Assembly: GCA_045635885.1 (NCBI GenBank)
Contig: JAZTWO010000053.1
Coordinates: 31 to 64,030 of the forward strand
Direction of reading: 5' to 3'
Length of the DNA: 64,000 nucleotides
Source of the DNA: Eubacteriales bacterium
GTDB taxonomy: Bacteria > Bacillota > Clostridia > Oscillospirales > CAG-272
In this document: piece by piece, positions 35,416-60,372 of the stretch
Position numbering within the stretch: position 1 is the first letter of the stretch
How the letters are laid out: every line of letters begins with the position of its first letter
Position numbers and translations under genes: made by a program
Notes under the pieces: generated by a model
What the model was told of the DNA's origin: nothing
Seen by the model: only the letters and a program-made list of their open reading frames with translations
Databases searched by the model: none

Positions 35416-35427
35416 CGGGTAAAGAAA

Positions 35428-46634: not shown

Positions 46635-48266
46635 TTATTTTATTGTAGAATCAATAGAATCTGTATCAATAATTACTAGTCTTCTCTTTATTTCTTCAAC
46701 GAATGCTGAAGCTCGTTTTTTTATAAAAGTATCGAAATCATCGTTCTGTATTCCATAGTCACTGATATCAAAAATTAAGTGATCATTTAATGTTTTCTGA
46801 AGTTCACTATTGTTTTTGGAGAACTCCTCGATGTAATCACTGGGACGTCGATTTCCAATATCCACCTGGTTTGTTGATGCATCTTGCAAAATAATGTTGC
46901 AGATGTTGTTTATAGGCTCATTTGTCCATGCTTGACCGACCATTTTCAATGGGAAGAAATGATGATAATTATTTTTATCTGGCATTGATACCCAATTTTG
47001 ATCAAAGCTTACCAAAGAATTCTTTGAAAGAGACTTGGGAGCCAATGACATAAGCAATCCAATCATTCCCTTGATATACGCAGTTTTTTGACCGAAAGAG
47101 CCATTTGCAACAAAAAGCTCTACGGACAAAGTAACATTGAATTGTTCGGGAGATTCGTCTTTGAGAATCTTATCAATAACATTTTTTGCATCACTTGCAA
47201 TTCTTGTATCAGTAGCTCTGCCAAAACGTCCAGTAAGGATGCAGCGCCAATAATAATCAATGAGATAATCCTGCTGTTTTTTACTGGGAGATTCTATTGA
47301 ATGCGTTTGGTTATACCTGTAGAAGAAATAGACATACAAGTAGAGAATAGGGGTATATGCTAACATATTTCCAACAGGAATTTTCAAGGAATGGATACAA
47401 AATGAAATAGCTGAATTAAGTGCTTTAACAACGGAGTCAAAGGAAGAAATCATTTCGTCACGTGTTAATCTTAGCTGGTCTTTTTTTGTTGTTCCTCCCT
47501 TTACACACAGTGCCACCATCTTTACAAGATCACTATCCGATACAACACTCTTGTATGCAACATTTAGATTATCTCGGCACTCTTTGGCTTTTTCAACCAA
47601 ATTGAATACGTCCGGCTTGTACGTTTTAGCTGTTATGATTTCAAAAGGAGTTAATTTTTTACCACCAGTGTTTAAGCGGGTAAAAATATCTGTAGCAACA
47701 TCTATATTTACACTATCAATTTTGATAGAGGGGAAATCTAACTCGTTTAGTTTTTTCTGGATTGCAGATATTTTGTCTATGTGATTAGGATAGTTGAGAA
47801 CAAAATACTTTAAGTCATTTTCACACAATTTAGCAAAGCTGATATTTACAAAATCTACATCTTCTGAGCGAACTGTAACAATGTCAGTTTCATAGTCCGT
47901 AAGATCGGCATCCAAGTTGATAATAATATCGGCATAAGATTTGTTTTTTATGGTCAACCCTTTAACGGCAGCAAAAATACTAGTGATACGTTGTTGACCG
48001 TCCAATATATATGTAGTCTTTGCAGTTTCGTCCTGCTTGTCATATATTACAGTGTTGCCGATTTGCTTTATTTTACAAAGCACTTCGTCCGTTGTCCATA
48101 AAATGAAAGCACCAAGAGGGTATCCCTTAATCCAGCTATCTAGCAGTTGTGCGGATTGCTCTATATCCCAAACAAAATCTCTTTGAAAGTCGGGAATGAC
48201 GTAAGTTCCATTAGATAAATTTGTTTCTATATCTGAAAGTTTGAGTGGTATGGATATCGGTCTCAT
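46635..48266 (-). CDS. DUF262 + DUF1524-like (GmrSD-family) putative type IV restriction endonuclease
   Basis: 543 aa. N-terminal ParB-like motifs IPDFQRDFVW and LDGQQRITS are present. The C-terminal His-Me-finger-like segment is HHFFPLK...NNICNIILQDASTNQ. Confidence 0.7.
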   Translation of the reverse strand: MRPISIPLKLSDIETNLSNGTYVIPDFQRDFVWDIEQSAQLLDSWIKGYPLGAFILWTTDEVLCKIKQIGNTVIYDKQDETAKTTYILDGQQRITSIFAAVKGLTIKNKSYADIIINLDADLTDYETDIVTVRSEDVDFVNISFAKLCENDLKYFVLNYPNHIDKISAIQKKLNELDFPSIKIDSVNIDVATDIFTRLNTGGKKLTPFEIITAKTYKPDVFNLVEKAKECRDNLNVAYKSVVSDSDLVKMVALCVKGGTTKKDQLRLTRDEMISSFDSVVKALNSAISFCIHSLKIPVGNMLAYTPILYLYVYFFYRYNQTHSIESPSKKQQDYLIDYYWRCILTGRFGRATDTRIASDAKNVIDKILKDESPEQFNVTLSVELFVANGSFGQKTAYIKGMIGLLMSLAPKSLSKNSLVSFDQNWVSMPDKNNYHHFFPLKMVGQAWTNEPINNICNIILQDASTNQVDIGNRRPSDYIEEFSKNNSELQKTLNDHLIFDISDYGIQNDDFDTFIKKRASAFVEEIKRRLVIIDTDSIDSTIK

Positions 48267-48464: not shown

Positions 48465-48513
48465 AAATATTATTGCAATCATTGTCATTTTGTGGTATAA
48501 TAATGTTGAAATT

Positions 48514-48924
48514 ATGACAATGATTGGAAAGATTGCAATGGTAACAGAAGTAGTGGCTGCACTTGTGTGGCGAGATGATAAATTTATGATATGCCAACGT
48601 CCTGCGCACAAGGCGAGAGGACTTCTGTGGGAGTTCGTTGGCGGCAAGGTCGAGCCGGGAGAAACGAAAGAACAAGCCCTAATCCGCGAGTGCAGAGAAG
48701 AGCTTGCAGTGACAATTTCGGTTGGCAACGTATTTATGGACGTAACGCACGAATACCCCGACTTGACGGTGCACTTGACATTGTTCAATGCGACCATCAC
48801 CGATGGCGAGCCACAAAAGTTGGAGCACAACGATATAAAATGGATAACCCCGAGCGAAATATCAAGCTACGAGTTCTGCCCAGCGGATGTGGAGATTTTA
48901 AATACGATTAAGCAAGAAATGTAA
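48514..48924 (+). CDS. Nudix hydrolase, MutT/(d)CTP pyrophosphohydrolase-like
   Basis: The Nudix box GKVEPGETKEQALIRECREELAV matches Gx5Ex7REUxEExGU except for the last G. The start is uncertain (ATG at 48514, 48520 or 48538). The track's TTG at 48490 overlaps an extended -10 element, TGgTATAAT (48493-48501). Confidence 0.8.
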   Translation: MTMIGKIAMVTEVVAALVWRDDKFMICQRPAHKARGLLWEFVGGKVEPGETKEQALIRECREELAVTISVGNVFMDVTHEYPDLTVHLTLFNATITDGEPQKLEHNDIKWITPSEISSYEFCPADVEILNTIKQEM

Positions 48925-48972
48925 ATTGGCAATTAGTAGTCAACAAATTTATGTAAAGAAAGGAAAACAGCA

Positions 48973-49713
48973 ATGACAGAACTTGAGAAAATAGCATATG
49001 CCAAATCATTTATAGATAAGTTGGCACAGGGAATCAATCCTATAGACGAAACCCCAATCCCGGAGAATGATATTGCTAATAATGTTCGGCTTTCACGTTG
49101 TTTTTTCTATGTGTCAGATATTTTGCGCCAAGTGATTGATAACGGTGGGGTATCTAATGTCAAGCCTATAAAGGTAAAGAAAACAGATTTTAAAATAACT
49201 CAAGAAGAGCGTGCTAAAATTAAAACTTCTGATGTTCCACTTTCAAGTAGAGAGATAGTTGATAATCTAAACAGTATTATTAATTTGGAAACTACTAAAA
49301 AGATTACATCCAATGCTATTAACGAGTGGCTTGTAGAATTAGGATTGTTAGAAGTTGTAGAATTCTCTAATGGCAAACACAGAAAACTTCCAACTTCTCA
49401 AGGAAATGACATGGGTATTTTTACCGAAGAAAGAGAAGGTCAGTATGGTAAATATATAATCGTTATGTTTTCACCTGATGCACAACAATTTATTTATGAC
49501 AATATTGAAGGTATAATAGAGAACAAAAACAAAAAATATAGTGGCGAATTTCAAGGCAGTGCTTGGACAAAAGAACAGGATGAGCAATTAATCTATTTGT
49601 TTAGAAATAACATTCCACTTGTAGAAATGGCATCAATGATGAAACGTTCTGAAGGCGGTATTCGAGCGAGACTTAAAAAATTAGGCTTGATTGAAAATAG
49701 ATACGATATTTAA
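48973..49713 (+). CDS. hypothetical protein with C-terminal Myb/SANT-like HTH
   Basis: 246 aa with RBS aaagga. The C-terminus WTKEQDEQLIYLFRNNIPLVEMASMMKRSEGGIRARLKKLGL resembles a Myb-like three-helix DNA-binding domain. It ends 19 nt before the giant helicase gene. Confidence 0.7.
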   Translation: MTELEKIAYAKSFIDKLAQGINPIDETPIPENDIANNVRLSRCFFYVSDILRQVIDNGGVSNVKPIKVKKTDFKITQEERAKIKTSDVPLSSREIVDNLNSIINLETTKKITSNAINEWLVELGLLEVVEFSNGKHRKLPTSQGNDMGIFTEEREGQYGKYIIVMFSPDAQQFIYDNIEGIIENKNKKYSGEFQGSAWTKEQDEQLIYLFRNNIPLVEMASMMKRSEGGIRARLKKLGLIENRYDI

Positions 49714-49732
49714 CTAATAATGGAGGCCAAAT

Positions 49733-52700
49733 ATGGCAAAAAACGTAGTATTTTTTGACACAGAAGTAAGTCGAGAAGACAATAGAATATGTGATATAGG
49801 AGCAGTACGTGATGACAAGGGAACTTTGCATACGGCATCTATTACGGATTTTTGCGCCTTTTCAGAGGGAGCGGATTTCTTGTGTGGTCACAATGCAGTG
49901 CATCATGATATGAGATATCTTGCATCTGTTGTTGATGCAAGAGTTCCTAAAAAAATAATAGATACGCTATATTTATCTCCGTTACTTTTTCCTAAGAGAC
50001 CTTATCATAGACTTCTTAAGGATGATAAAATCCAGGTAGAAGAATTGAACAATCCAGTAAACGATAGTCACAAAGCAAAAGATCTGTTCTTAGATGAGGT
50101 GAATGCTTTTTATCAGCTGTCCATCGGAAAGAAAAAGATATTTTGTGGATTGTTATATAATCATAAAGAATTTCAGGGATTTTTTGATTATGTGGAATTT
50201 AAGCCATATTCATACAAAATGACACAAATGATTTTGGAGGAATACAAAGGTAAGGTTTGTGCTAATGCGGATATTGATATTTTGATAAAATATTATCCAG
50301 TAGAACTTGCGTATGCGCTTGCTTTAATTGGTTCCAATGATTATAGTTCCATAACTCCTCCTTGGTTATTAAAAAACTATCCAAAAATTGAAAATGTCAT
50401 TAAGTTTTTGTGTAACACACCCTGTAAAGATGGTTGTGAGTATTGCAATAGTATATTGGATATTCACAAAAGTCTTAAATCTATATTTGGTTTTGATAAT
50501 TTTAGAACCTATAATGGTGAACCTTTACAAGAAAAGGCAGCAAGGGCTGCGGTTGAGGGAGAATCATTACTTGCGGTTTTTCCAACTGGTGGGGGGAAGT
50601 CCATTACTTTTCAGTTGCCAGCTCTAATGGCTGGTAAAACAACTCATGGATTAACAGTTGTAATCTCTCCATTGCAGTCTCTTATGAAAGATCAAGTTGA
50701 TAATCTTGTTGAAAAGGGAATAGAGAGCGCGGTTACTGTGAATGGCATGCTTAACCCTATTGAAAGAGCTGAGGCATTGGATCGTGTTAAATCCGGAAAG
50801 GCATCACTATTATATATTTCACCCGAGCAATTACGTTCAAAAACTATAGAAAAGCTCCTTATTTCAAGAAGTATTGTTAGATTTGTAATAGACGAGGCGC
50901 ATTGCTTTTCAGCTTGGGGACAAGATTTTAGAGTTGATTACTTATATATTGGTGATTTTATTAGAAAACTTCAAAAGAAAAAAGGCGATAAAAAGCCTGT
51001 GCCTGTATCTTGCTTTACTGCTACTGCTAAGCAAAAAGTTATTTCTGACATTAAAGATTATTTTAAACAGAAATTGGACTTAGATCTTAAGCTTTTTGCA
51101 TCAACGGCTACACGAGAAAACTTGCATTATACGGTTTTACATAAAGAAACAGACGAAGAAAAATACAATGCTTTGCGTGCATTAATTGAGCAGAAGAATT
51201 GTCCGACAATCGTTTATGTTTCAAGAACCAAAAGAACAGTGGAATTGGCTCAAAAACTAACCAGTGACGGATTCCCGGCACTTCCATACAACGGCAAGAT
51301 GGACTCGAACGATAAAATTGCTAATCAAGAAGCATTTATGAATAACGAGGTTTCAATTATTGTAGCAACCTCGGCTTTTGGTATGGGTGTGGATAAGAGC
51401 GATGTTAAGCTTGTTGTACATTATGATATTTCCGACTCTCTCGAAAACTATGTTCAAGAGGCAGGAAGAGCAGGAAGAAATCCTCAACTGCAAGCTGATT
51501 GCTATGTATTATTCAATGATAATGATCTTGATAAACACTTTATTCTTTTGAATCAAACTAAACTTAGTATCAGTGAGATTCAGCAAGTATGGAAGGCAAT
51601 TAAAGACTTAACCAAAGAAAGACCTAATGTATGTTGTTCAGCGCTTGAGATTGCAAGGCAAGCAGGTTGGGACGACACTATGGTCTCAGAGATGGAAACG
51701 CGAGTCAGGACAGCGATTTCCGCTTTGGAAACTGCAGGGTATATAAAGAGAGGCATGAATATGCCTCGTGTGTATGCGACAAGTATTCTTGCTAAAGATA
51801 TGGCCGAAGCATCTTTTACAATAAGAGAATCAAAGCTATTCACAGATGAGAATAGGGAAAATTCTCTTAGGATAATTAAGTCGTTGATTTCAAGTAGAAG
51901 TATAGCTTCTGCTGATAATGGAGATGCAGAATCTCGTGTTGATTATCTCGCTGATATGTTGGGTATTCCCAAAGAGCAGGTAATTGAGTCTATTAATTTA
52001 ATGCGCCAAGCTGGACTTCTTGAAGATTACAGCGATATGTCCGCATATATTAATGACTCAAATACACAAAATAGATCTAATCATATACTTGATAGATTTG
52101 CAAAATTAGAAAAGTTTATTCTTTCCAAGATAACTGAAGAAGGTTTCAAATTTGGATTTAAGGAACTTAATGAAGAGGCACAAGATTCGGGTATTACAAC
52201 CTCTAATATTAAAAATATCAGGACAATATTGTTCTATTTATCAATAAAGAATTATATCGTCAAGAAAGAAAATAGGGACGATTGCTCTGTAGAACTTGTA
52301 CCATCCCTTGATATCGAAAAGATGATAGAAAAATTTGAAAAGCGTATTGATATATGTAAGTTCATTATTAAGGAATTATATGGAAAAGTTCTCCCTGAAA
52401 CTAATGAGGGAGAAGAGCAAAAACCTATAGAGTTTTCTTTGGTAGGTATTTATAAAGCATACCAAGAAGAACCTAAAATGCAAGTTTATTCAACTCCTAT
52501 TCAATTGAATGATGTTGAAGATGCATTGCTTTATCTGTCTAAAATAGGCGCATTGAAACTTGAAGGTGGATTTCTTGTTCTTTATAATGCTATGGAGATC
52601 AAGCGTATTGTGAGGGATAATAAAATACGTTACAAACTTGAAGACTATCGTTTACTTGATGAATTTTATAAACAAAAAATACGTCAAATACACATAGTTG

Positions 52701-54538
52701 GTGAATATGCTAACTTAATGGTTAAGGATTACGAAGCAGCACTACAGTTTGTTCAGGATTATTTCCAAATGGACTTCAAGAAATTCATTGCTACATATTT
52801 CAAGGGTGAGCGAGCCAAAGAAATTGAGCGCAATATAACTCCTGCAAAATACGATCAATTATTTGGAGAACTATCAGACAAGCAGGCCGAGATTATTAAT
52901 GATGCGGATTCCAAATGTATTGTTGTTGCAGCAGGCCCCGGAAGTGGCAAAACAAGAGTTCTTGTACACAAATTGGCTTCACTATTGCTTCTTGAAGATG
53001 TTAAGCATGAACAACTTTTGATGGTTACATTTTCACGTGCAGCAGCAACGGAATTTAAGCAACGTTTGCGTTCCTTGATTGGAAATGCTGCCAACTTTGT
53101 AGAGATTAAAACGTTCCATTCATATTGCTTTGACTTGCTTGGTAAAGTTGGTACTATTGAGGCATCCAATAATGTTGTCAGGGATGCTGCGCAAATGATT
53201 CTTGACGGAGAAGTAGAGCAGGGCAAGATTTCTAAGAGTGTTCTCGTTATTGATGAGGCTCAAGATATGGATGAAAGCGAATTTATGCTTGTGGAAGCGC
53301 TTATGAAGAATAACGACGATATGCGTGTTATAGCAGTTGGCGATGATGATCAGAATATCTACGAATTCCGAGGCTCAGACTCTAAATATTTAAGAAAATT
53401 AATTGAAGATCACGCGGGTAATTTTTATGAAATGACTGAGAACTATCGAAGCAGAACTAATATTGTTGCCTTTGCTAATGCATTTGCAGAGTCTATTACC
53501 GATAGAATGAAAGTTACTCCTATCGAGGCAGTATCAAGTGAATATGGCAAAGTACATCACACTTACCATACTTGTGCTAATATAGAAGAAGCAGTTGTCA
53601 ATAAAGTTATTGAAACTCATAAAGGTGGTAGTGCTTGTATATTAACAAATACTAATGATGAAGCTTTGCGCATTCTTGGATTGCTTCTTAAAAATGGTAA
53701 GAGAGCAAGATTAATACAATCAATTGATGGTTTTAAACTCATAAACTTGGTTGAAATTAGAGCTTTTTTGAGGTTGATTGATAGAGATTTGAAAACTCCT
53801 CTAATTAAAGACGAAGTTTGGAATGAAGCCAAGAAGACATTATTTAACCAATATAAAAACAGTGCTTGCATAAATAATATTAAGAATCTTATAAGAGATT
53901 TCGAGGAAACTCACAACAAAAAATATCGTTCGGATTTGGAATGCTTTATTAATGAATCAAGTTACGAAGATTTTTATGATGACCACGATATCGAGACTAT
54001 CTATGTATCTACAATACATAAATCTAAAGGTAGAGAATTCGATAGTGTATATATGATGCTTAAAAATGTTGTTGCTTCTACTGATGAAGAAAGAAGAAAA
54101 ATCTATGTTGGTATTACAAGAGCTAAAGATAATCTATTTATTCATACTAATACACGTCTATTTAGCAGATTTATTGTGGAGGGTGTAAGACATTTTGAAG
54201 ATAAGCAACAATATGTTGAACCTGCAGAAATAATGCTTCAAACTAATCACAGAGATGTTGTTCTTGACTATTTCAGAAACAAGAGAGAAATAATATTCTC
54301 TTTGCGTAGTGGTCAGCTCCTAAAAATTGATGATGTTTATTTGACAGCAGAGATTAATAATCGCGATGTAAGAATTGCTAAGTTTTCTAAGGCATATACT
54401 GAAACGCTTGAAAAACTTAAAAACAAGGGTTATGAACTTCATAAAGCTGAGGTGAATTTCATTGTTGCATGGAAGCATGAAGATGATGAACAAGAAACCC
54501 CCATTATCTTAGCAAATTTGTACTACGTAAAGAAATAA
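49733..54538 (+). CDS. DnaQ-like 3'-5' exonuclease + RecQ-like SF2 helicase + UvrD-like SF1 helicase fusion protein
   Basis: 1601 aa with RBS GGAGG. Motifs by domain:
- Exonuclease: FFDTEV, GHNAVHHDMRYL, SHKAKD
- RecQ-like: FPTGGGKS, DEAHCFSAWGQDFR, FTATA, QEAGRAGRN
- UvrD-like: AAGPGSGKT, LVIDEAQDMD, GDDDQNIYEFRG, ENYRSR, STIHKSKGREFD, YVGITRAKDNLFI. Confidence 0.9.
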   Translation: MAKNVVFFDTEVSREDNRICDIGAVRDDKGTLHTASITDFCAFSEGADFLCGHNAVHHDMRYLASVVDARVPKKIIDTLYLSPLLFPKRPYHRLLKDDKIQVEELNNPVNDSHKAKDLFLDEVNAFYQLSIGKKKIFCGLLYNHKEFQGFFDYVEFKPYSYKMTQMILEEYKGKVCANADIDILIKYYPVELAYALALIGSNDYSSITPPWLLKNYPKIENVIKFLCNTPCKDGCEYCNSILDIHKSLKSIFGFDNFRTYNGEPLQEKAARAAVEGESLLAVFPTGGGKSITFQLPALMAGKTTHGLTVVISPLQSLMKDQVDNLVEKGIESAVTVNGMLNPIERAEALDRVKSGKASLLYISPEQLRSKTIEKLLISRSIVRFVIDEAHCFSAWGQDFRVDYLYIGDFIRKLQKKKGDKKPVPVSCFTATAKQKVISDIKDYFKQKLDLDLKLFASTATRENLHYTVLHKETDEEKYNALRALIEQKNCPTIVYVSRTKRTVELAQKLTSDGFPALPYNGKMDSNDKIANQEAFMNNEVSIIVATSAFGMGVDKSDVKLVVHYDISDSLENYVQEAGRAGRNPQLQADCYVLFNDNDLDKHFILLNQTKLSISEIQQVWKAIKDLTKERPNVCCSALEIARQAGWDDTMVSEMETRVRTAISALETAGYIKRGMNMPRVYATSILAKDMAEASFTIRESKLFTDENRENSLRIIKSLISSRSIASADNGDAESRVDYLADMLGIPKEQVIESINLMRQAGLLEDYSDMSAYINDSNTQNRSNHILDRFAKLEKFILSKITEEGFKFGFKELNEEAQDSGITTSNIKNIRTILFYLSIKNYIVKKENRDDCSVELVPSLDIEKMIEKFEKRIDICKFIIKELYGKVLPETNEGEEQKPIEFSLVGIYKAYQEEPKMQVYSTPIQLNDVEDALLYLSKIGALKLEGGFLVLYNAMEIKRIVRDNKIRYKLEDYRLLDEFYKQKIRQIHIVGEYANLMVKDYEAALQFVQDYFQMDFKKFIATYFKGERAKEIERNITPAKYDQLFGELSDKQAEIINDADSKCIVVAAGPGSGKTRVLVHKLASLLLLEDVKHEQLLMVTFSRAAATEFKQRLRSLIGNAANFVEIKTFHSYCFDLLGKVGTIEASNNVVRDAAQMILDGEVEQGKISKSVLVIDEAQDMDESEFMLVEALMKNNDDMRVIAVGDDDQNIYEFRGSDSKYLRKLIEDHAGNFYEMTENYRSRTNIVAFANAFAESITDRMKVTPIEAVSSEYGKVHHTYHTCANIEEAVVNKVIETHKGGSACILTNTNDEALRILGLLLKNGKRARLIQSIDGFKLINLVEIRAFLRLIDRDLKTPLIKDEVWNEAKKTLFNQYKNSACINNIKNLIRDFEETHNKKYRSDLECFINESSYEDFYDDHDIETIYVSTIHKSKGREFDSVYMMLKNVVASTDEERRKIYVGITRAKDNLFIHTNTRLFSRFIVEGVRHFEDKQQYVEPAEIMLQTNHRDVVLDYFRNKREIIFSLRSGQLLKIDDVYLTAEINNRDVRIAKFSKAYTETLEKLKNKGYELHKAEVNFIVAWKHEDDEQETPIILANLYYVKK

Positions 54539-54561
54539 TATGGATTTTCAGGAGAATACTG

Positions 54562-54936
54562 ATGAAAAATTATCAAGCTGAAGTTCGTGCCCGTTATGGC
54601 AACACCGATGCCTACCGCGAGCACGAACAGAAAACAAAGAATTATACAAAAGAGAAGTGGGCAGAGGCGAATGATGGCTTGATGGCTATCTTTGGTGAGT
54701 TTGCTGCTTGCAAGGATAGCGGCATGGGTGCCGATTCATATGAAGCGCAATCATTGGTAGCCAAGCTTCAGGCGCACATCACAGCCAATTACTACACCTG
54801 CACCGACGAAATTCTCGCAGGGCTTGGCAAGATGTACGTTGCCGACGAGCGATTCAAGAAGAACATCGACAAGTATGGAGAGGGCACTGCAAAGTTTACT
54901 TCAGAAGCAATTAAGACTTTTTGTGATTGTCGATAG
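54562..54936 (+). CDS. stand-alone TipAS-like (antibiotic-recognition) domain protein
   Basis: 124 aa with RBS AGGAG. The pattern YGNTDAYREHEQKTKNYTKEKW...LGKMYVADERFKKNIDKYGEG is typical of the TipAS C-terminal domain of MerR/TipAL proteins. No MerR HTH is present. Confidence 0.7.
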   Translation: MKNYQAEVRARYGNTDAYREHEQKTKNYTKEKWAEANDGLMAIFGEFAACKDSGMGADSYEAQSLVAKLQAHITANYYTCTDEILAGLGKMYVADERFKKNIDKYGEGTAKFTSEAIKTFCDCR

Positions 54937-55001
54937 TAGAAACTGTCGCTAAAATCTGTTTCATACATTATTTTGAAAGCGAAATATAGATGTGGTGACG
55001 T

Positions 55002-55589
55002 ATGGTAAATAGAATAATTAAAGAAGTTAAAACAGCATTAGATAATGAGTGTTATATAGTTGCGCTTATGGGCGCGTTAACATTGCCGGATATCTGTGGT
55101 AAAAGTGCGTACCCGAATTTGAGTGTTGGGGAACGATATAGGAACTGGTGTGATACGTATGTATATCCCAAAAAACAACATACTGACGAAGATGGAAAAA
55201 CTTTGGACTGTGGCATAACAGATTTGAGTGGAAAAATCATATACAGTTTGAGGTGTTGTCTACTGCATCAAGGTAGTGCAGATATTGATGGCAAGAAATG
55301 TGAGGTTGAAAATTTTGAATTGCTTATTCAACCCCAAAATGAATTTAACATCTATGTGGATAACTTTGGTGTGATTTGGTCGAACGATAACTATGAACAT
55401 CGTGAGCGACATATGAGCCTACACATCAGGAATATCTGCAAGGATCTTTGTAATGCTGCGGAAATGTATTATCAAAACAACAAGGCTTCGTTTGGATTTA
55501 TTAAGTACAAGATATCGCAAATTGATCCCAACGCTGAACATCCTTGGGATTATAGCAAAGGAACACCTGACGAATGGTATGGCAAATAA
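55002..55589 (+). CDS. hypothetical protein with HEPN-like Rx4H motif
   Basis: 195 aa. It has an N-terminal helical segment ECYIVALMGALTLPDICGK and the motif SLRCCLLHQG (R-x4-H). The family assignment is speculative. Confidence 0.6.
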   Translation: MVNRIIKEVKTALDNECYIVALMGALTLPDICGKSAYPNLSVGERYRNWCDTYVYPKKQHTDEDGKTLDCGITDLSGKIIYSLRCCLLHQGSADIDGKKCEVENFELLIQPQNEFNIYVDNFGVIWSNDNYEHRERHMSLHIRNICKDLCNAAEMYYQNNKASFGFIKYKISQIDPNAEHPWDYSKGTPDEWYGK

Positions 55590-55615
55590 AATTTATTTGA
55601 AATGGAATCAAAACA

Positions 55616-56041
55616 ATGGTTAAAGAATTAATGCACGATCCCATCTTCCTCGCAGGGAAGTCGGAGGTCGCAACGAAAGAAGATTTGCAGGTCTCACAGG
55701 ATTTGCTTGATACGCTGATGGCGCACAGGGAAAGCTGCGTCGGTATGGCTGCAAATATGATTGGTGTGCGCAAGCGCATCATCGCCTTTCTCGACGAAAG
55801 CGGACGAGCTCCCACTTATACGGTGATGCTCAATCCCGAGATTATCAAGAAGGACGGCGCATACGATACCGAGGAAGGCTGTCTATCACTTCTCGGCGGC
55901 CCACGCAAATGCAAGCGCTACAAGAACATCAAGGTGCAGTATCAAACCCTTGAAATGCAAACGCGCATCAAAACCTACATCGGCTGGACGGCGCAGATCA
56001 TTCAGCATGAGGTAGATCATTGTAATGGGGTGTTAATTTGA
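55616..56041 (+). CDS. def: short, divergent peptide deformylase
   Basis: 141 aa. Motif 2 (EGCLS) and motif 3 (HEVDH) are intact. Motif 1 reads GMAANMIG rather than the canonical GxAAxQ. Confidence 0.8.
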   Translation: MVKELMHDPIFLAGKSEVATKEDLQVSQDLLDTLMAHRESCVGMAANMIGVRKRIIAFLDESGRAPTYTVMLNPEIIKKDGAYDTEEGCLSLLGGPRKCKRYKNIKVQYQTLEMQTRIKTYIGWTAQIIQHEVDHCNGVLI

Positions 56042-56050
56042 GGAGGCAAT

Positions 56051-57013
56051 ATGGAATATAAACTCCATAGTTATTTTTGTTCCCCTAAAAAATATAGGGA
56101 AGAATACTTTTTTGGAAATACAATTGTCAAGCTTATTTCTCATGGTGAAAAATGTGCAGATATTAACTTTTCAGTACAAGGAGAGACTACATATGAAATT
56201 AAAATAGAAACCACTGATTCTCCTGCTACGGTGCGAAAAGTATTAGATTTATTGTGTTGCTCATATACATTGGTCTATGGATATAACGAATACGATAGCG
56301 ATGATTTGGCTGACCATATTATACCCGAATCGGAAAAGGATGATTATTTTTGGGTAGGACGTCCTTTGTACCATGTTTCCGGTGATGATTATTGGTATTA
56401 TGCACTGCTTTTGGCTGAAAAGGCATATGGAAATCAGAAAATGATTAATGCTATAACAAGGTATCATTCAGCTCATAAAATCGTAAATTTACATCCAATG
56501 GATTTAGATCCTCGTAATGACCCATTTCAAAACGAATACCTATTATCTAAACAAATGAATATTGCCAATTGCATATTGTCTTGTTATGCAGCTTTAGAGG
56601 AAATTGATTTGTGTGTCGAATTAAAAAGAGGTGCGGGTTTATTGAATGAAGAAAAAAACGGTTGGAATTACGATACGTATAGAACTACTATTGAAAAACT
56701 AACAAATTCCGGTATCGATCCTAATATGGAAATAGTATGGCTATATAGAGGAAACACCGCACAAACAAATGTTGATATAGCAGTGAAAGTGATGAGAACA
56801 TGCGAATGGAGTTTTGGAGAGATCAGTGATTATTATACTACACCTGTTGATGCTTTATTAATAATTAAGTATTTAAGAAACAAAGCAGGAGCGCACAATG
56901 ATGATGAAAAAATAGGGTCATTATCTATTTATGATGCTGAGAACGCATTTTACTTAAGCAGAACTCTCTTGCTTATTAAATTTGGTATTTATGAACTAAT
57001 GGAAAAAGAGTGA
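56051..57013 (+). CDS. hypothetical protein with C-terminal HEPN-like RNxxxxH motif
   Basis: 320 aa, starting 9 nt after def. YLRNKAGAHND gives R-x5-H with Asn after the Arg, as in many Abi/HEPN RNases. I recognised no other motif. Confidence 0.6.
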   Translation: MEYKLHSYFCSPKKYREEYFFGNTIVKLISHGEKCADINFSVQGETTYEIKIETTDSPATVRKVLDLLCCSYTLVYGYNEYDSDDLADHIIPESEKDDYFWVGRPLYHVSGDDYWYYALLLAEKAYGNQKMINAITRYHSAHKIVNLHPMDLDPRNDPFQNEYLLSKQMNIANCILSCYAALEEIDLCVELKRGAGLLNEEKNGWNYDTYRTTIEKLTNSGIDPNMEIVWLYRGNTAQTNVDIAVKVMRTCEWSFGEISDYYTTPVDALLIIKYLRNKAGAHNDDEKIGSLSIYDAENAFYLSRTLLLIKFGIYELMEKE

Positions 57014-57152
57014 AAAAACAGTCGATGCCGTAATTATTTATTATACCACAAAACAAAAGTGGATTGAAAATTTAATATAGTTGTGTAGCCCCCCCTGAAT
57101 TTTTCAATCCAATTGAGAGTTGTGATATAATATAGTCACCAACAAAAGAGAG

Positions 57153-57539
57153 GTGACAAATATGACAAACAAAGAAACAGTAGTAAATTCGCTTATTCAT
57201 GCGACTGAACAAATAGGGATTATTCCAACACTCTATTCGGTTTTTGGAAAAACGGTTGCTGTTAAAGTTCCTTTTACAAAAAAAGCTTGCGAAACTGAGA
57301 TAGATGAGATTGATTTTTCACCACGTGCGAATCATGCGCTAAAAAGGGCATCTATATTTTCTATCGGACAAGTTATTGATGTTATTAACGGAGAAGATGG
57401 ACTTAAGCGCATTCGCAATCTTGGGACTAAAACTGAAAATGAAATAAAAACTAAAATTTTAGCATTTGCATATGGGCATCTTAATGATAAAGAAAAGAGA
57501 ATTTTCTTTTATGATATTTTAGAGGTGAATTGCAGATGA
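57153..57539 (+). CDS. RNA polymerase alpha-CTD-like helix-hairpin-helix protein
   Basis: 128 aa with RBS agagagg. FSPRANHALKRASIFSIGQVIDV...IRNLGTKTENEI matches the LSVRxxNCLKxAxIxTxGxL...NxGxKSxxEI pattern of the RpoA CTD. Confidence 0.6.
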   Translation: MTNMTNKETVVNSLIHATEQIGIIPTLYSVFGKTVAVKVPFTKKACETEIDEIDFSPRANHALKRASIFSIGQVIDVINGEDGLKRIRNLGTKTENEIKTKILAFAYGHLNDKEKRIFFYDILEVNCR

Positions 57540-57563
57540 CAGTAACATTAGGAGAAATACGGT

Positions 57564-57836
57564 ATGAGTTCTCATAAAAAATTTGCAGGTAGAGGAATGT
57601 ACGAATTTTATATGCCTACAACTGGCAAAGGGAGTAAAGGTAGAAGAGATAGAAGAAAATGTTCTTATTATGACCCAACTTCAAAATATTGTTATGCTAT
57701 AAACAATACTTGTGTCGGCCCTGCTATTTGCAAGAAATATCATCCTTTTGTTAGTGATAAAACTATCAAAAAAGATGGTTTGATTGGGAAAGAGATTTTT
57801 AACGAATATTACGGCAAAGGAATCGTTATCTTCTAA
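57564..57836 (+). CDS. small basic Cys-containing hypothetical protein (uncertain)
   Basis: 90 aa with RBS AGGAG. Its 3' 156 nt overlap the convergent DUF3846-like ORF, so the two cannot both be taken at face value. Confidence 0.35.
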   Translation: MSSHKKFAGRGMYEFYMPTTGKGSKGRRDRRKCSYYDPTSKYCYAINNTCVGPAICKKYHPFVSDKTIKKDGLIGKEIFNEYYGKGIVIF

Positions 57837-57977
57837 CCATACAAATTCGATAAGACCTTGATAGTCAGCTCCTATGCTAACTGCCTTCTGCAGAGAATCG
57901 AGATCGGTGTTGAGGTCTACCACGCAGGGATGCTTGTTTGGCTCAACCATTAATGCTTTAACTGTTTTTGCTTTCAT
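57681..57977 (-). CDS. DUF3846-like protein
   Basis: 98 aa with RBS AAGGAG 8 nt upstream. VKALMVEPNKHPCVVDL...LQKAV...GLIE...AVIF...PNQTI aligns with its paralogue at 58060-58464 (IKVLKIEPKQHPYVYYV...GGIE...YAIF...PNRSI). Confidence 0.55.
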   Translation of the reverse strand: MKAKTVKALMVEPNKHPCVVDLNTDLDSLQKAVSIGADYQGLIEFVWLEDNDSFAVIFVKNLFPNQTIFFDSFITNKRMIFLANSRADTSIVYSITIF

Positions 57978-57994
57978 AATAAAAACTCCTTAAA

Positions 57995-58035
57995 TAAAAA
58001 TATCGGTAATAGCGCTGTGGCTATTACCGATTACT
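57995..58035 (-). terminator. hairpin after the upstream DUF3846 gene
   Basis: atcggtaatagc-gctgtg-gctattaccgat forms a 12-bp stem, with a T-rich tract on the minus strand. Confidence 0.6.
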
Positions 58036-58669: not shown

Positions 58670-58793
58670 ATTTGTACTCCTTTGTGTTTTTTTAATTATT
58701 TGTTTAAATGTGGGCGCAAGAAACAAAAAAGAAGCATTTTGTGGAAAAATAATGAGTTTTGACATTCGGATGTGAAAAACTGGTATATTCTTG

Positions 58794-58822: not shown

Positions 58823-58889
58823 GATGTAATAATATAAATATTTAAATAAATATTAATATTTTTAATATATTTTTGTGCAGGAGGCATAT

Positions 58890-60371
58890 ATGGTTAATTT
58901 GAAAGAAAACAAGCCCACGGCCGATATTTTGATGAATTCTATGAGATCAATGGGATATTCATTCGAAAGTGCAATTGCCGATATTGTTGATAATAGTATT
59001 AGCGCCGCTGCACATAATATTTGGATTCGTTTCCCGATCGACCCTTTGGACTGCTATGTGGCTATTTGTGATGATGGTTGTGGAATGAGCAAAGAAGAAC
59101 TTTTTGATGCTATGAAATATGGAAGCGAGCAAAAGCGCAACTACCGATCATCGGATGATTTGGGAAGATTTGGGCTTGGATTGAAATCCGCATCACTTTC
59201 ACAGTGTAGAAAACTAACTGTAGCTAGCAAGAAAAACGGAGAAGTTTCTGCATATATTTGGGACCTTGATATCATCCTCGAAAAAAAAGATTGGTATATG
59301 GTAGAATGTTCCGAGCAACAAATAGAGTCAATTAAACAAATCTCGTGGTTAAACAACTTAGATAGTGGTACCGTGGTTGTTTGGGAAAATTTTGATGTTA
59401 TAGAAAAAGCATCAGGAAATGTATATTCCGAGTTGAACAAGTATCAAGAAGATACCGCTGATTATTTATCATTGATTTTTCATAGATTTATCAATCGTGT
59501 TGGTAATGCCAAAGTTTCATTCAAAGTTAATAATTTTATTCTTTGTGGAATGGATCCATTTTTAGAATCTCATCCCAAGACCAATGTGCGCAAAAGAATA
59601 GAAATTCCTATTTTAGACTCCCAAAACATTGAGCGCATGGTTGTTGTACAACCTTATGTGTTGCCTTTTCAAAAAGATCTTACAGCAGAAGATAAAAAAT
59701 TGTCTGGAGGTATTGAAAATTATCGTTCTAAACAAGGATTTTATGTTTATAGGAACGAAAGATTGATTGTTTGGGGCAATTGGTTTGGAAGGCATAGAGA
59801 TGAACTCACAAAATATGCGAGAATTCGTGTGGATATTCCCAATACATTGGATGATATTTGGGGTATAGATATTAAAAAGCAGAGTGCAAAAATTCCGTCG
59901 GTAATCAAAAATAGACTAACTAGAGCCGTAGATGAGGCTATGGACATAGCCGTTAAAGCGCAGAAATTTAGAGGACGTGTTGATAAAGCAAATGATAAAA
60001 TTGATTACATTTGGCTTCCAATCAAGACACGTGAAGAGCAACATGCTTTTGTGATAAATCGAGATGCCAAGATTTTTGATTTAATTAAAGGGCAAGTGGA
60101 TGATGAAACTTGGGCAAGGATAGATATGGTTTTAGAAGAAATTGAAAACTCATTACCGTATCAGCAAATCTATATAGATAAATCTCAAAATAAAATTGAT
60201 GATACTGTTGATGATGAACGCAAAGCGGAAATCGAAAACAAAGCAAGAATGTTAATAATGATGGCTTTAGCGATGGGAAATGCAGATAAATCAAACATTA
60301 TTGAATCCCTTTTTAATTCTGAACCATTTAACAATTATCCGGAGTTGAAAATCAAATTGTTGGAGGAATGA
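58890..60371 (+). CDS. GHKL (HATPase_c_3, MutL/Hsp90-like) ATPase
   Basis: ATG at 58890 follows AGGAGG. The track's GTG at 58875 is less likely. Bergerat-fold motifs ESAIADIVDNSISA, ICDDGCGM and GRFGLGLKSAS are present. Confidence 0.85.
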   Translation: MVNLKENKPTADILMNSMRSMGYSFESAIADIVDNSISAAAHNIWIRFPIDPLDCYVAICDDGCGMSKEELFDAMKYGSEQKRNYRSSDDLGRFGLGLKSASLSQCRKLTVASKKNGEVSAYIWDLDIILEKKDWYMVECSEQQIESIKQISWLNNLDSGTVVVWENFDVIEKASGNVYSELNKYQEDTADYLSLIFHRFINRVGNAKVSFKVNNFILCGMDPFLESHPKTNVRKRIEIPILDSQNIERMVVVQPYVLPFQKDLTAEDKKLSGGIENYRSKQGFYVYRNERLIVWGNWFGRHRDELTKYARIRVDIPNTLDDIWGIDIKKQSAKIPSVIKNRLTRAVDEAMDIAVKAQKFRGRVDKANDKIDYIWLPIKTREEQHAFVINRDAKIFDLIKGQVDDETWARIDMVLEEIENSLPYQQIYIDKSQNKIDDTVDDERKAEIENKARMLIMMALAMGNADKSNIIESLFNSEPFNNYPELKIKLLEE

Positions 60372-60372
60372 T

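What the first reader, a model, noticed from the sequence alone, without database searches (positions are those of the whole stretch)
48973..54538. Two-gene module: Myb-like 246-aa protein plus a 1,601-aa DnaQ-exonuclease/RecQ/UvrD triple fusion in a defence island
One polypeptide carries three complete catalytic motif sets:
- DEDDh-type exonuclease: FFDTEV, GHNxxxxD, SHKAKD
- RecQ-type SF2 helicase: GGGKS, DEAH, QEAGRAGRN
- UvrD-type SF1 helicase: GSGKT, DEAQD, YRSR, TIHKSKGREFD, GITRAK
About 400 aa of unassigned sequence lie between the two helicases.

The gene is translationally close-coupled (19-nt gap, GGAGG) to a small protein with a Myb/SANT-like C-terminus. The pair is very AT-rich (15 of 60 G+C in line 52081-52140). 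It sits between a GmrSD-like gene and other defence-like genes.

Combining two helicases from different superfamilies with a proofreading-type exonuclease is not the architecture of any defence system I can name. Gabija GajB, Nhi, Hachiman HamB, DISARM DrmA and Druantia DruE all differ. I consider this the best candidate in the window for an undescribed anti-phage or anti-plasmid nuclease-helicase system.
Basis: partly seen in the sequence, partly recalled or inferred. Interest (0 to 1): 0.7.

Follow-up and report, generated by a model that had tools for sequence, protein, structure and literature searches.

The report
Mobile exonuclease-like RecQ–UvrD helicase, optional partner
A real but uncharacterised 1,601-residue protein joins an exonuclease-like head to two different DNA helicase motors; it travels between gut bacteria on mobile DNA, sometimes with a small DNA-binding partner that also pairs with other helicases, which makes it a plausible but unproven candidate for a new anti-phage or anti-plasmid system.

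Summary
Both ORFs, the 19-nt GGAGG junction and both helicase motif sets are real. All helicase motifs are invariant in 54 full-length homologues. The true motif is N-[N/D]-P-x-x-D, so this is not a canonical DEDDh site and nuclease activity is unproven.

The fusion is not rare. It occurs in 74 species-level genomes across at least six phyla, and more distantly (27-35% identity) on plasmids of Proteobacteria, Cyanobacteria and Campylobacterota. All are labelled only "RecQ family helicase".

Only 12 of 53 species representatives keep the partner next to it. The partner is a large unannotated family. It more often pairs with a 950-aa UvrD-type helicase, or an Upf1-like helicase, inside defence islands.

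In the window the pair lies inside a ~9.5-kb co-directional array (NUDIX ... peptide deformylase), flanked by a GmrSD-like gene and Mza genes. Partner-bearing copies ride on mobile elements. Partnerless copies mostly sit among housekeeping genes.

No PADLOC model or searchable paper describes this architecture. Verdict: a new variant of helicase-nuclease conflict genes, with function untested.

The parts
48473..48501 (+). Promoter-like site (TTGCAA-17-TATAAT with TG extension) at the head of the co-directional array
   Evidence: Consensus scan only. It is the best + strand match upstream of the array; function is not shown.
48490..48924 (+). NUDIX/MutT-like hydrolase, a recurrent flank of partner-helicase cassettes. 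The true start is probably downstream of 48490.
   Evidence: PF14815/PF00293 and NF007834-like hits. Homologues at 75-86% aa identity lie next to other helicase cassettes in L010, L033, L086, L089, L171 and L172.
48973..49713 (+). Partner protein, 246 aa. It has a very conserved N-terminal helical hairpin (aa 3-56), a winged-helix-like alpha/beta domain (aa 77-187) and a Myb/SANT/GcrA-like three-helix HTH (aa 200-236).
   Evidence: ORF confirmed. No hit in Pfam, NCBIfam, PADLOC or PDB sequences. The family has 2589 homologues, and 682 clusters at 50% identity reach E <= 1e-30. AlphaFold model pLDDT 86, pTM 0.52. No significant PDB fold match. The C-terminus matches PHROG 323 at E = 3.6e-6. Many homologues (~187 aa) lack the C-terminal HTH.
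49714..49732 (+). 19-nt junction with Shine-Dalgarno GGAGG at 49722-49726
   Evidence: Read directly from the sequence.
49733..50116 (+). Fusion aa 1-128: DEDD-exonuclease-like (RNase H-fold) domain. Invariant residues are D9, E11, H53, N54, D59, N106, N107 and D111. The DEDDh histidine is replaced by Asn.
   Evidence: Motif conservation. AlphaFold pLDDT 87.8. Foldseek top hits are DEDD exonucleases: S. aureus DinG E = 2.8e-4, RNase AS, REXO2 and the phi29 exonuclease domain. No Pfam or PDB sequence hit.
50117..50467 (+). Fusion aa 129-245: helical linker with a conserved Cys cluster (C231, C235 and C238 invariant; C227 in 33 of 54), a probable Zn site
   Evidence: Model secondary structure. 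Conservation. Zn binding is inferred.
50468..51532 (+). Fusion aa 246-600: RecQ-family SF2 helicase core (Walker A GGGKS 286-290, DEAH 387-390, arginine finger QEAGRAGR 575-582)
   Evidence: Pfam DEAD and Helicase_C. TIGR00614 scores above its cut-off. All motifs are invariant in 54 homologues, and mean identity is 80%.
51533..52852 (+). Fusion aa 601-1040: conserved region of unknown fold, with several winged-helix-like segments
   Evidence: Only sub-threshold HTH hits (DUF2250, HTH_Crp_2, TrmB, MarR_2) around aa 729-772. A profile of 43 homologues finds no PDB sequence relative. Mean identity is 65% with many invariant residues.
52853..54157 (+). Fusion aa 1041-1475: UvrD/PcrA-type SF1 helicase core (GSGKT 1070-1074, DEAQD 1174-1178, motif III, motif IV YRS, motif V, motif VI TRAK)
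   Evidence: PF00580, PF13245, PF13361 and PF13538. Motifs are invariant in 54 homologues.
54158..54538 (+). Fusion aa 1476-1601 plus stop: C-terminal beta-rich domain of unknown function, the least conserved part (mean identity 46%)
   Evidence: No Pfam hit above threshold. The profile finds no PDB sequence relative. Conservation figures.
54562..54936 (+). TipAS-domain protein without a MerR HTH, a recurrent flank
   Evidence: PF07739 at E = 4.5e-40. Homologues at 80-83% identity occur in L033 and L086.
55002..55589 (+). 195-aa protein of unknown function in the same array
   Evidence: Matches phrog_18591 at E = 1.7e-29.
55616..56041 (+). Short peptide-deformylase-like protein with EGCLS and HEVDH motifs intact; a recurrent neighbour of the partner and of the helicases
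   Evidence: NF006670 scores 187 bits against a cut-off of 162. PF01327. Sequence read. Homologues at 74-93% identity are adjacent to the cassettes in L033, L081-84, L086, L089 and L171.
56051..57836 (+). Rest of the array: a 320-aa protein (weak GmrSD_C-like hit), a 128-aa RNA-polymerase-alpha-CTD-like protein and a 90-aa ORF
   Evidence: ORF list. PF03118 at E = 3.4e-12; PF07510 at E = 0.028, which is below threshold.
58002..58031 (.). Bidirectional terminator-like hairpin (12-bp stem) closing the array
   Evidence: It is the only strong terminator-like site between 48.5 and 58.0 kb.
46635..48266 (-). Upstream neighbour: 543-aa GmrSD_N (DUF262) protein, matching the PDC-M55C and HEC-05 candidate defence models
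   Evidence: PF03235 at E = 1.1e-33. PADLOC hits.
58875..63207 (+). Downstream neighbours: MzaB (58875-60371) and MzaC (60373-63207) of the Mza defence system
   Evidence: PADLOC MzaB at E = 7.6e-86 and MzaC at E = 1.6e-120, both near full length.

Best explanation
**What it is (shown).** The 1,601-aa protein is a self-contained, horizontally mobile DNA-processing enzyme. It comprises:
- a DEDD-exonuclease-fold head;
- a Cys-cluster linker;
- an intact RecQ-family SF2 motor;
- a conserved ~440-aa region rich in winged-helix-like segments;
- an intact UvrD-type SF1 motor;
- a small C-terminal domain.

It belongs to a large family carried as cargo on mobile elements and plasmids: serine-recombinase and Tn4451-like mobilisable elements, conjugative-element accessory regions, and capsid-plus-primase islands.

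In the clade that includes the window it is preceded by a 190-250-aa DNA-binding partner. That partner is a member of a much larger family, which also pairs with at least two other helicase types inside defence islands.

**How it most likely works (inferred).** It acts as an inter-genome conflict module, either defence of the host and element against phages or plasmids, or competition between mobile elements.
- The two motors, both from families that translocate 3'->5' on ssDNA, load on 3' tails, gaps or forks of replicating or incoming foreign DNA and unwind it.
- The DEDD head binds the freed 3' end and, if active, trims it.
- The partner, through its winged-helix and SANT-like domains, either targets the helicase to DNA or restrains it until triggered, as RqlI restrains RqlH. 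This would explain why the partner is interchangeable between helicase types and dispensable in many lineages.
For: **Intact catalytic motifs under purifying selection**
- All RecQ and UvrD motifs are invariant in 54 homologues.
- D9, E11, D59 and D111 are invariant down to 27% identity.
- The exonuclease fold is supported by the model and Foldseek.

**Mobility**
- Identity is 55-84% across Clostridia, Bacteroidales, Desulfovibrio, Planctomycetes, Negativicutes and Opitutales.
- The gene lies on plasmids.
- It is flanked by serine recombinases, a relaxase, TnpV, Tn916-Xis, capsid plus D5 primase, and YodL/DUF4316.
- G+C is lower than in the rest of the window.

**Defence context of partner-bearing cassettes**
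- The window has GmrSD_N and MzaB/C.
- L081 has cytosine methylases plus HNH, SIR2_2 and AAA_15/21 plus HNH.
- L085 has McrBC and AAA_21.
- L086 has a Cap4-nuclease STAND protein and a Schlafen helicase.
- The partner plus UvrD-950 pairs are flanked by a full-length type IV mREase, DruE1, HsdR, PDC-S13 and PDC-S01.

**Conserved flanks with a variable core**
- NUDIX, TipAS and PDF are 75-93% identical between loci, while the helicase between them is swapped.

**The pair behaves as a unit**
- It is kept as a unit in about 16 different contexts.
- Tight spacing and a Shine-Dalgarno site link the two genes.
Against: - There is no functional test of any family member.
- 41 of 53 species-level fusions lack the partner. 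All six plasmid-borne distant homologues lack it too.
- Among 22 partnerless loci, the 88 nearest neighbours are mainly two-component regulators, transporters, proteases and metabolic enzymes. Only about a dozen are defence-type hits.
- In Opitutales and in L003 the gene sits alone among housekeeping genes.
- The sequence is unusually conserved for an immune gene: the RecQ core averages 80% identity across phyla.
- The DEDDh general-base His is replaced by Asn, so nuclease activity may be weak or absent. No other nuclease domain was found.
- Some partners are solitary, next to DUF711 or transporter genes.
- The surrounding operon (NUDIX, PDF, TipAS; elsewhere Macro and ADP-ribosylglycohydrolase) could equally serve counter-defence.
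Confidence: 0.4

Rival explanations
1. The helicase serves the mobile element's own DNA metabolism. It would help replication, single-strand-to-duplex conversion, repair or establishment of the plasmid, ICE or IME after transfer or excision. Known analogies are PcrA/UvrD-type helicases used by ICEs and conjugative plasmids. The partner would be an element-encoded loader or regulator.
For: - In Aliarcobacter pACIB the gene lies directly between parA/parB-rep-dnaB and the type IV coupling protein.
- In a Bacteroides plasmid it lies a few kb from SSB genes and parA/parG.
- Relaxase/TnpV, ParA/YodL/DUF4316 and D5-type primase neighbours occur elsewhere.
- Strong sequence conservation fits a housekeeping-like role for the element.
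- A recipient UvrD is reported to act in ssDNA-to-dsDNA conversion of conjugative plasmids (title and abstract of PMC10085688, listed).
Against: - Many copies lie in chromosomal housekeeping neighbourhoods with no element genes within the two nearest genes on either side.
- The position relative to rep, par and mob genes is not conserved.
- The partner's other helicase cassettes sit between restriction and Druantia genes rather than in replication modules.
- The gene is not found on sequenced phages or IMG/VR contigs.
Confidence: 0.25
2. It is an accessory host DNA-repair or recombination helicase, a bacterial WRN-like exonuclease-RecQ enzyme extended by a UvrD motor. It would be inherited patchily and occasionally captured by mobile elements. 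The partner would be just a local transcription factor.
For: - PGAP names it a RecQ family helicase.
- TIGR00614 scores above its cut-off.
- Partnerless copies have housekeeping neighbours.
- Conservation is high.
- The exonuclease-then-RecQ order resembles WRN, and the exonuclease fold resembles the DinG head.
Against: - Identity of 55-84% across six phyla, and location on plasmids, imply frequent horizontal transfer.
- RecQ's own C-terminal Zn/WH/HRDC modules are not detected. The match to TIGR01389 stops at model position 375 of 591, at half the cut-off score.
- G+C is low relative to the host.
- A partner that is tightly conserved and pairs selectively with helicases is not typical of a plain regulator.
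Confidence: 0.2
3. The array (NUDIX, partner, helicase, TipAS, peptide deformylase; elsewhere Macro, ADP-ribosylglycohydrolase and Fic) is a counter-defence or establishment operon of a mobile element. The helicase would displace or outcompete host nucleases on the element's DNA.
For: - The flank genes recur together.
- Macro and ADP-ribosylglycohydrolase genes lie immediately upstream in L173, and YodL/LPD18/DUF4316 polyvalent-protein domains nearby.
- DUF3846 lies next to the array in the window.
- Polyvalent proteins of conjugative elements include helicases, among them UvrD-like ones (PMC5512222).
Against: - No known anti-defence protein family was detected in the pair.
- L180 carries the pair without any of these flank genes.
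- The same islands hold bona fide defence systems.
Confidence: 0.1

Closest known systems
PsyrTA / RqlHI (RecQ-like helicase toxin plus small partner; listed as a defence system)
   Same: A RecQ-family helicase is encoded next to a small partner gene. The PADLOC PsyrT model matches residues 245-625 at E = 2.9e-82. The idea that a partner restrains a genotoxic helicase is a usable working model.
   Different: The match covers only the helicase core (model positions 9-376 of 689). There is no exonuclease head and no UvrD motor in PsyrT. The partner here hits no PADLOC model, including PsyrA. It is a winged-helix plus SANT-like protein, and most fusions have no partner.
Gabija (GajA OLD-type nuclease plus GajB UvrD-like helicase)
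   Same: It contains a UvrD-type SF1 motor in a defence setting. GajB models match residues ~1045-1489 (best E = 4e-47).
   Different: None of the ten window proteins scanned against PADLOC, the partner included, hit a GajA model. The helicase is fused to a RecQ motor and a DEDD-like head. GajB models cover only one quarter of the protein.
Dpd system helicase DpdF
   Same: It gives the best PADLOC and NCBIfam hits for the SF2 part: PDLC02864 at E = 2.2e-98, and NF041063 at 214.7 bits.
   Different: The score is below the NF041063 cut-off (214.7 against 550). The match covers only residues 242-637. No other Dpd component hit any of the ten window proteins scanned against PADLOC.
Werner-syndrome helicase (WRN) type: DEDD exonuclease followed by a RecQ helicase
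   Same: The domain order at the N-terminus is the same: a 3'-5' exonuclease-fold domain, then a RecQ-family motor.
   Different: No sequence relationship of the exonuclease head was detected. RQC and HRDC domains were not detected. An additional UvrD motor is present. The catalytic Tyr/His position is Asn. It is of bacterial, mobile-element origin.
Firmicute DinG (DEDD exonuclease fused to an SF2 helicase; S. aureus DinG structures 8zef and 9ii8)
   Same: It is the best structural match for the N-terminal domain (Foldseek E = 2.8e-4, probability 1.0). The principle is the same: an exonuclease head on a helicase.
   Different: Sequence identity is 14-16%. From general knowledge, DinG's motor is XPD-like, not RecQ-like. 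DinG has no second motor.
Single-chain or two-gene helicase-nuclease defence genes (Nhi, Hna, Hachiman HamAB, Mokosh)
   Same: The general logic is shared: a helicase coupled to a nuclease-type domain, carried in islands or on mobile elements.
   Different: No PADLOC model of these systems was among the 25 best of the 68 models that hit the fusion. None combines an SF2 RecQ motor with an SF1 UvrD motor. Resemblance to these systems is recalled from general knowledge, not tested further here.

Membership tests
RecQ family helicases (NCBIfam TIGR00614 subfamily) | Whole-protein score above the curated cut-off; helicase motifs 0-VI with DEAH | tested here: met
   276.7 bits against a cut-off of 219.8. 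The motifs are invariant in 54 homologues.
Bacterial RecQ proper (TIGR01389 / PRK11057 equivalogs) | Full-length match including the RecQ-Ct Zn-binding, winged-helix and HRDC domains | tested here: not met
   315 bits against a cut-off of 640. The match ends at model position 375 of 591. No HRDC or RQC Pfam hit. No four-Cys cluster follows motif VI in the sequence.
UvrD/Rep/PcrA SF1A helicases | Pfam UvrD-helicase and UvrD_C domains above threshold; motifs Q, I-VI | tested here: met
   PF00580 at 113 bits (cut-off 23) and PF13361 at 81.9 bits (cut-off 25.6). The motifs are invariant. Equivalog models (pcrA, uvrD, rep) score far below their cut-offs, so it is a family member, not an orthologue.
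DEDDh (DnaQ-like) 3'-5' exonucleases | ExoI D-x-E and ExoII D | tested here: met
   D9, E11 and D59 are invariant in 55 close homologues and in six distant ones.
DEDDh (DnaQ-like) 3'-5' exonucleases | ExoIII H-x4-D with a catalytic histidine | tested here: not met
The conserved motif is N106-N107-P-x-N-D111, or N-[N/D]-P-x-x-D in distant members.
DEDDh (DnaQ-like) 3'-5' exonucleases | Sequence-profile membership (for example Pfam RNase_T) | tested here: not met
   No exonuclease family at E <= 1 for residues 1-256. No PDB sequence hit.
DEDDh (DnaQ-like) 3'-5' exonucleases | RNase H-like DEDD fold | tested here: met
   The AlphaFold model has pLDDT 87.8. The top Foldseek PDB hits are DEDD exonuclease domains, at modest E-values (2.8e-4 to 3e-2) with probability ~1.0.
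DEDDh (DnaQ-like) 3'-5' exonucleases | Metal-dependent 3'-5' exonuclease activity | not testable with these tools
   This needs biochemistry with D9A/E11A and N106A controls.
PsyrTA / RqlHI | PsyrT-type helicase over its full length plus an adjacent PsyrA/RqlI partner | tested here: not met
   The PsyrT model matches the core only (positions 9-376 of 689). The partner has zero PADLOC hits.
Gabija | GajA (ATPase-TOPRIM OLD nuclease) adjacent to GajB | tested here: not met
   None of the ten window proteins scanned hits a GajA model. Not every ORF in the island was scanned.
Dpd (7-deazaguanine DNA modification) cluster | DpdF above the equivalog cut-off and neighbouring dpdA-K genes | tested here: not met
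   NF041063 scores 214.7 bits against a cut-off of 550. No other Dpd hits among the neighbours scanned.
Defence-island gene (guilt-by-association criterion) | A majority of family members lie next to known defence genes | tested here: inconclusive
   Partner-bearing cassettes lie in islands or on mobile elements with RM, SIR2, McrBC, Druantia, type IV and Mza genes. For 22 partnerless loci, only about a dozen of 88 nearest neighbours are defence-type. Only two genes per side were sampled, and no background rate was computed.

The most novel reading that the evidence does not exclude
The unannotated partner family would define a new modular class of immune cassette: one conserved DNA-binding adaptor or gatekeeper plus an interchangeable helicase effector. 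The family has at least 680 clusters at 50% identity and no Pfam model. The known effectors are a 950-aa Zn-ribbon UvrD, an Upf1-like SF1 helicase, and the exonuclease-like-RecQ-UvrD single chain. These cassettes occupy variable slots of mobile-element operons and defence islands in gut bacteria. In this reading the triple fusion is a dual-motor effector that destroys or stalls replicating foreign DNA, by a mechanism distinct from Gabija, Hachiman, Nhi and PsyrTA.
Probability: 0.25. Interest if true: 0.75.

Novelty: new variant of a known kind. Interest (0 to 1): 0.55.

Why it matters
If the fusion or the partner-helicase cassettes protect against phages or plasmids, they would add a widespread gut-microbiome immune module. 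It would have an unusual design: two helicase motors from different superfamilies and a DEDD-type head in one chain, with a swappable adaptor.

It would also give a function to two large protein families. One is currently labelled only "RecQ family helicase". The other is labelled "hypothetical protein".

If instead the helicase serves plasmid or ICE DNA metabolism, it would be a new element-encoded factor affecting gene transfer among gut anaerobes.

Either way, the work corrects the annotation. This is not a RecQ orthologue and not a canonical DEDDh proofreading exonuclease.

Tried and rejected
**Searches that found nothing**
- Sequence-level identification of the N-terminal domain: no Pfam hit at E <= 1 and no PDB phmmer hit. 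Only the structure prediction helped.
- The partner has no hit in Pfam, NCBIfam, PADLOC or PDB sequences. Whole-model Foldseek against PDB and BFVD gave no significant match. The model's low pTM (0.52) limits whole-chain searches.
- Profiles of the middle region (aa 600-1045) and of the C-terminal domain found no PDB relatives.
- Partner in sequenced phages and plasmids: only two unannotated faecal 'Bacteriophage sp.' contigs and one irrelevant HTH hit, plus one IMG/VR contig.
- Fusion in IMG/VR: none.
- Six full-text literature searches for RecQ/UvrD/exonuclease fusions in defence found nothing relevant. Two candidate papers were checked directly.
- There are no tRNA genes in the window that could mark an integration site.

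**Ideas considered and rejected**
- That ~200-aa ORFs upstream of partnerless fusions are divergent partners. The HMM search with --max gave E > 0.7 for all of them. They are Fic, AbiE-like, NUDIX, esterase and membrane proteins, unrelated to each other.
- That the SF2 helicases upstream of the partner in gut metagenome loci are a split form of the RecQ part. They are complete type IV restriction enzymes, DruE1 or HsdR, which are independent systems.
- That the two-component genes recurring downstream are functionally linked. They are a generic family, so the recurrence is by chance.

Full report
**1. Observation**

They are separated by 19 nt containing GGAGG at 49722-49726.

Pfam finds DEAD (264-436) and Helicase_C (476-583), then UvrD-helicase, AAA_19 and UvrD_C (1048-1473). 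NCBIfam's RecQ-family model TIGR00614 scores 276.7 bits against a cut-off of 219.8. All equivalog models (recQ, pcrA, uvrD, rep, DpdF) score far below their cut-offs.

I aligned 54 full-length homologues recovered from species-representative genomes. Every Walker A, DEAH/DEAQD, arginine-finger and other helicase motif is invariant or nearly so. Both motors are therefore under selection to remain active.

The G+C claim holds: 15 of 60 in the cited line, and the pair is 33-35% GC against 38.6% for the window. The neighbours are indeed defence-like. A GmrSD_N protein lies upstream, and near-full-length MzaB and MzaC lie downstream.

**2. The exonuclease claim is only partly right**

Residues 1-256 hit no exonuclease family in Pfam even at E <= 1, and no PDB sequence.

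An AlphaFold model was built on 104 sequences (pLDDT 87.8). It shows a five-stranded alpha/beta core in residues 1-128. The best Foldseek matches in the PDB are DEDD 3'-5' exonuclease domains. S. aureus DinG comes first (E = 2.8e-4), then PolB and phi29 exonuclease domains, RNase AS, REXO2 and NrnC.

D9/E11 and G52-H53-N54...D59 are invariant. The conserved third motif is N106-N107-P-x-N-D111. In homologues only 27-35% identical, from Proteobacteria, Cyanobacteria and Campylobacterota, it reads N-[N/D]-P-x-x-D-[S/A]. It sits exactly where DEDDh enzymes have H-x4-D.

The four acidic ligands are thus kept, but the general-base His is an invariant Asn. The domain has a DEDD fold; whether it cuts DNA or only binds 3' ends is open.

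A conserved Cys cluster (C231, C235, C238) follows in a helical linker. RecQ's own Zn/WH/HRDC tail is not detectable.

Residues 601-1040 are strongly conserved (65% mean identity). They give only sub-threshold winged-helix-type hits and no PDB relative. The last 125 residues are the most variable and are also unassigned.

**3. The fusion is a large, mobile family that is usually solitary**

The protein database holds at least 120 clusters (at 90% identity) of ~1600-aa full-length relatives at 68% identity or more. Where named at all, they are called 'RecQ family ATP-dependent DNA helicase'.

A scan of one genome per species found 74 loci at 55-84% identity. They come from Clostridia, Bacteroidales, Desulfovibrio, Planctomycetes and Negativicutes. 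An Opitutales genome also carries it. This is clear horizontal spread among gut and rumen organisms.

tblastn against plasmids found full-length relatives on Phocaeicola and Bacteroides plasmids (57%) and on Aliarcobacter pACIB (35%). More distant relatives (27-34%) lie on large plasmids of Nostoc, Calothrix, Thiothrix, Allochromatium, Croceicoccus, Paracoccus, Sulfitobacter and Cereibacter. Those whose annotated gene I extracted are 1599-1720 aa.

In Aliarcobacter the gene lies between parAB/rep/dnaB and the type IV coupling protein. Elsewhere it sits among TA, RES, H-NS and IS genes. None was found in IMG/VR.

**4. The partner**

The 246-aa protein has no hit in Pfam, NCBIfam, PADLOC or PDB sequences. 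It nevertheless belongs to a very large family: 2589 hits in the word-indexed search. In the exhaustive HMM search, 682 clusters at 50% identity reach E <= 1e-30. All are stand-alone proteins of about 190 or 245 aa.

The first ~60 residues are almost invariant. The model (pLDDT 86, pTM 0.52) shows three parts: an N-terminal helical hairpin, a winged-helix-like alpha/beta domain (77-187) and a C-terminal three-helix bundle (200-236). It matches PHROG 323 (E = 3.6e-6), and some homologues match GcrA. The short forms lack it.

Whole-model fold searches were not significant.

**5. Is it a two-gene module?**

*For.* The partner lies immediately next to the fusion in 12 species-representative loci (11 upstream, one downstream). 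It also does so in the window, in L081-84, in L172 (a divergent partner, HMM E = 7e-31) and in L180. The flanking genes differ between these loci. In L180 the pair stands alone between two serine-recombinase genes.

*Against.*
- Only 12 of 53 species representatives with readable flanks have the partner.
- No other gene recurs next to the partnerless copies.
- None of six plasmid-borne homologues has it.
- The partner is not specific to this helicase. In about 45 of 80 metagenome loci it directly precedes an unrelated 945-954-aa UvrD-type helicase with N- and C-terminal Zn ribbons. In L086 it follows a 1004-aa Upf1/Mokosh-like SF1 helicase. In about 20 loci it is solitary.

In the window itself the pair is embedded in a tightly spaced co-directional array: NUDIX, partner, fusion, TipAS, a 195-aa protein, a short peptide deformylase, a 320-aa protein, an alpha-CTD-like protein and a 90-aa ORF. 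The array runs from a promoter-like site at 48473 to the only strong terminator at 58002-58031.

NUDIX, TipAS and the deformylase recur at 75-93% identity beside other partner-helicase cassettes (L033, L086, L089, L171, L172), while the helicase between them is exchanged. This is a conserved-flank, variable-core pattern.

**6. Context**

Partner-bearing cassettes lie on mobile elements or in defence islands:
- L081 has a serine recombinase, two cytosine methylases plus HNH, SIR2_2 and AAA_15/21 plus HNH.
- L085 has AAA_21 and McrBC.
- L086 has a Cap4-nuclease STAND protein, a Y-family polymerase and a Schlafen helicase.
- The gut-metagenome partner plus UvrD pairs are flanked by a full-length type IV methyl-directed enzyme, DruE1, HsdR plus YgjP, PDC-S13 and PDC-S01.
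- Neighbours of the 12 partner-positive fusions include Schlafen helicases, NUDIX, phage capsid plus D5/NrS-1 primase, Tn916-Xis and Fic.
- L171 and L173 show relaxase/TnpV/DUF6809 and ParA/YodL/DUF4316 respectively.

For 22 partnerless loci the picture differs. The 88 nearest neighbours are mostly two-component regulators, TamB, tricorn-type proteases, transporters and metabolic enzymes. There are about a dozen defence-type hits: type III REase, PtuA/B, PDC-M12A/B, ShosA, SoFic and AriA. In Opitutales and in L003 the gene is alone among housekeeping genes.

**7. Interpretation**

*Shown.*
- The protein is a conserved multi-domain enzyme with two intact helicase motors and a DEDD-fold head.
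- It has a mobile, patchy distribution.
- It has a facultative DNA-binding partner shared with other helicases.
- The partner-bearing clade is associated with mobile elements and defence islands.

*Inferred.* It is a conflict module that loads on 3' tails, gaps or forks of foreign DNA, unwinds them and possibly trims 3' ends. The partner would be an adaptor or gatekeeper. I put this at about 0.4.

*Rivals.*
- An element-serving replication or establishment helicase (0.25).
- A mobile accessory repair helicase of the WRN or DinG kind (0.2).
- Part of a counter-defence operon (0.1).

High cross-phylum conservation, the many solitary copies in housekeeping neighbourhoods and the missing catalytic His weigh against a classical immune nuclease. 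The island contexts, the hot-spot-like cassette exchange and the partner's selective pairing with helicases weigh for it.

**8. Comparison and novelty**

PADLOC-DB v2 models match only parts of the protein: DpdF, PsyrT and an 'alternative Cas3' model on the SF2 core, and GajB and RTasHel on the SF1 core. The partner matches nothing.

The defining companions of PsyrTA, Gabija and Dpd are absent. RecQ and UvrD orthology is not met, and the DEDDh criterion fails at motif III (see the membership table). Six full-text searches and three papers checked directly gave no description of an exonuclease-RecQ-UvrD fusion or of the partner family. I could not run DefenseFinder, so a recent name cannot be excluded.

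I rate it a new variant of a known kind: helicase-nuclease-type genes of mobile elements and defence islands. It is not categorically new.

Interest is 0.55. The architecture and the partner's modularity are unusual and testable, but the immune role is unproven. The 'two-gene system' holds only for one clade, and the nuclease assignment is weaker than claimed.

Noticed in passing
window 48473-58031: About nine tightly spaced co-directional genes form one operon-like array between a promoter-like site and a single strong bidirectional terminator. They are NUDIX, partner, fusion, a TipAS-only protein, a 195-aa phrog_18591 protein, a short peptide deformylase with intact EGCLS/HEVDH motifs, a 320-aa protein, an RNAP-alpha-CTD-like protein and a 90-aa ORF. 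NUDIX, TipAS and the deformylase recur at 75-93% identity beside different helicases in other genomes.
   Followed up: partly
L085, L089, L090, L093-L155 (e.g. L103:10001-13591): The commonest context of the partner family in human-gut metagenomes is a pair with a 945-954-aa UvrD-type helicase that carries N- and C-terminal Zn ribbons. The pair sits between a full-length type IV methyl-directed restriction enzyme, DruE1 or HsdR, and PDC-S13 or PDC-S01 genes. It looks like a separate uncatalogued two-gene candidate.
   Followed up: partly
L086:6950-11098: A 365-aa partner homologue follows a 1004-aa Upf1/Mokosh-like (AAA_11/AAA_12) SF1 helicase. The flanks (NUDIX ... TipAS, deformylase) are the same as in the window.
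   Followed up: partly
L180:2034-7605: A 76%-identical partner plus fusion pair lies alone between two serine-recombinase (Resolvase) genes. A cytosine methylase and an SNF2 helicase lie nearby.
   Followed up: no
window 58875-63207 (and 58413-58775): MzaB and MzaC of the Mza defence system are present. MzaD/E would lie beyond the window end. A 120-aa ORF just upstream could be MzaA but was not tested.
   Followed up: no
window 46635-48266 (-): A 543-aa protein has only the GmrSD N-terminal (DUF262) domain detectable. Its best PADLOC hits are the candidate models PDC-M55C and HEC-05.
   Followed up: no
window 45275-46072 (-): A fumarate-reductase/succinate-dehydrogenase flavoprotein-like ORF retains only the C-terminal end of FAD_binding_2 plus Succ_DH_flav_C. 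It may have been truncated at the left edge of the low-GC island.
   Followed up: no
window 28300-40212: A 2371-aa subtilase carries Big_2, RCC1-like and dockerin domains. Two cohesin-bearing scaffoldin-like proteins follow it. This indicates a cellulosome- or amylosome-type Clostridia host.
   Followed up: no
L010, L012-L015, L058, L081-84, L171 (e.g. L081:15130-15396): A small DUF6809 protein recurs just downstream of the fusion or nearby. In L171 it lies with TnpV and a relaxase, which suggests Tn4451-like mobilisable elements as carriers.
   Followed up: partly
L132:8188-9831 and related loci: A 547-aa protein with no Pfam, PADLOC or PDB match precedes otherwise solitary partner genes. In many loci it is reduced to 90-170-aa remnants.
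   Followed up: partly
L012, L013, L015, L058 (e.g. L013:9043-9978): Upstream of the fusion, the partner ORF is 311 aa long and contains a second, partial copy of the winged-helix-like domain (an internal duplication).
   Followed up: no
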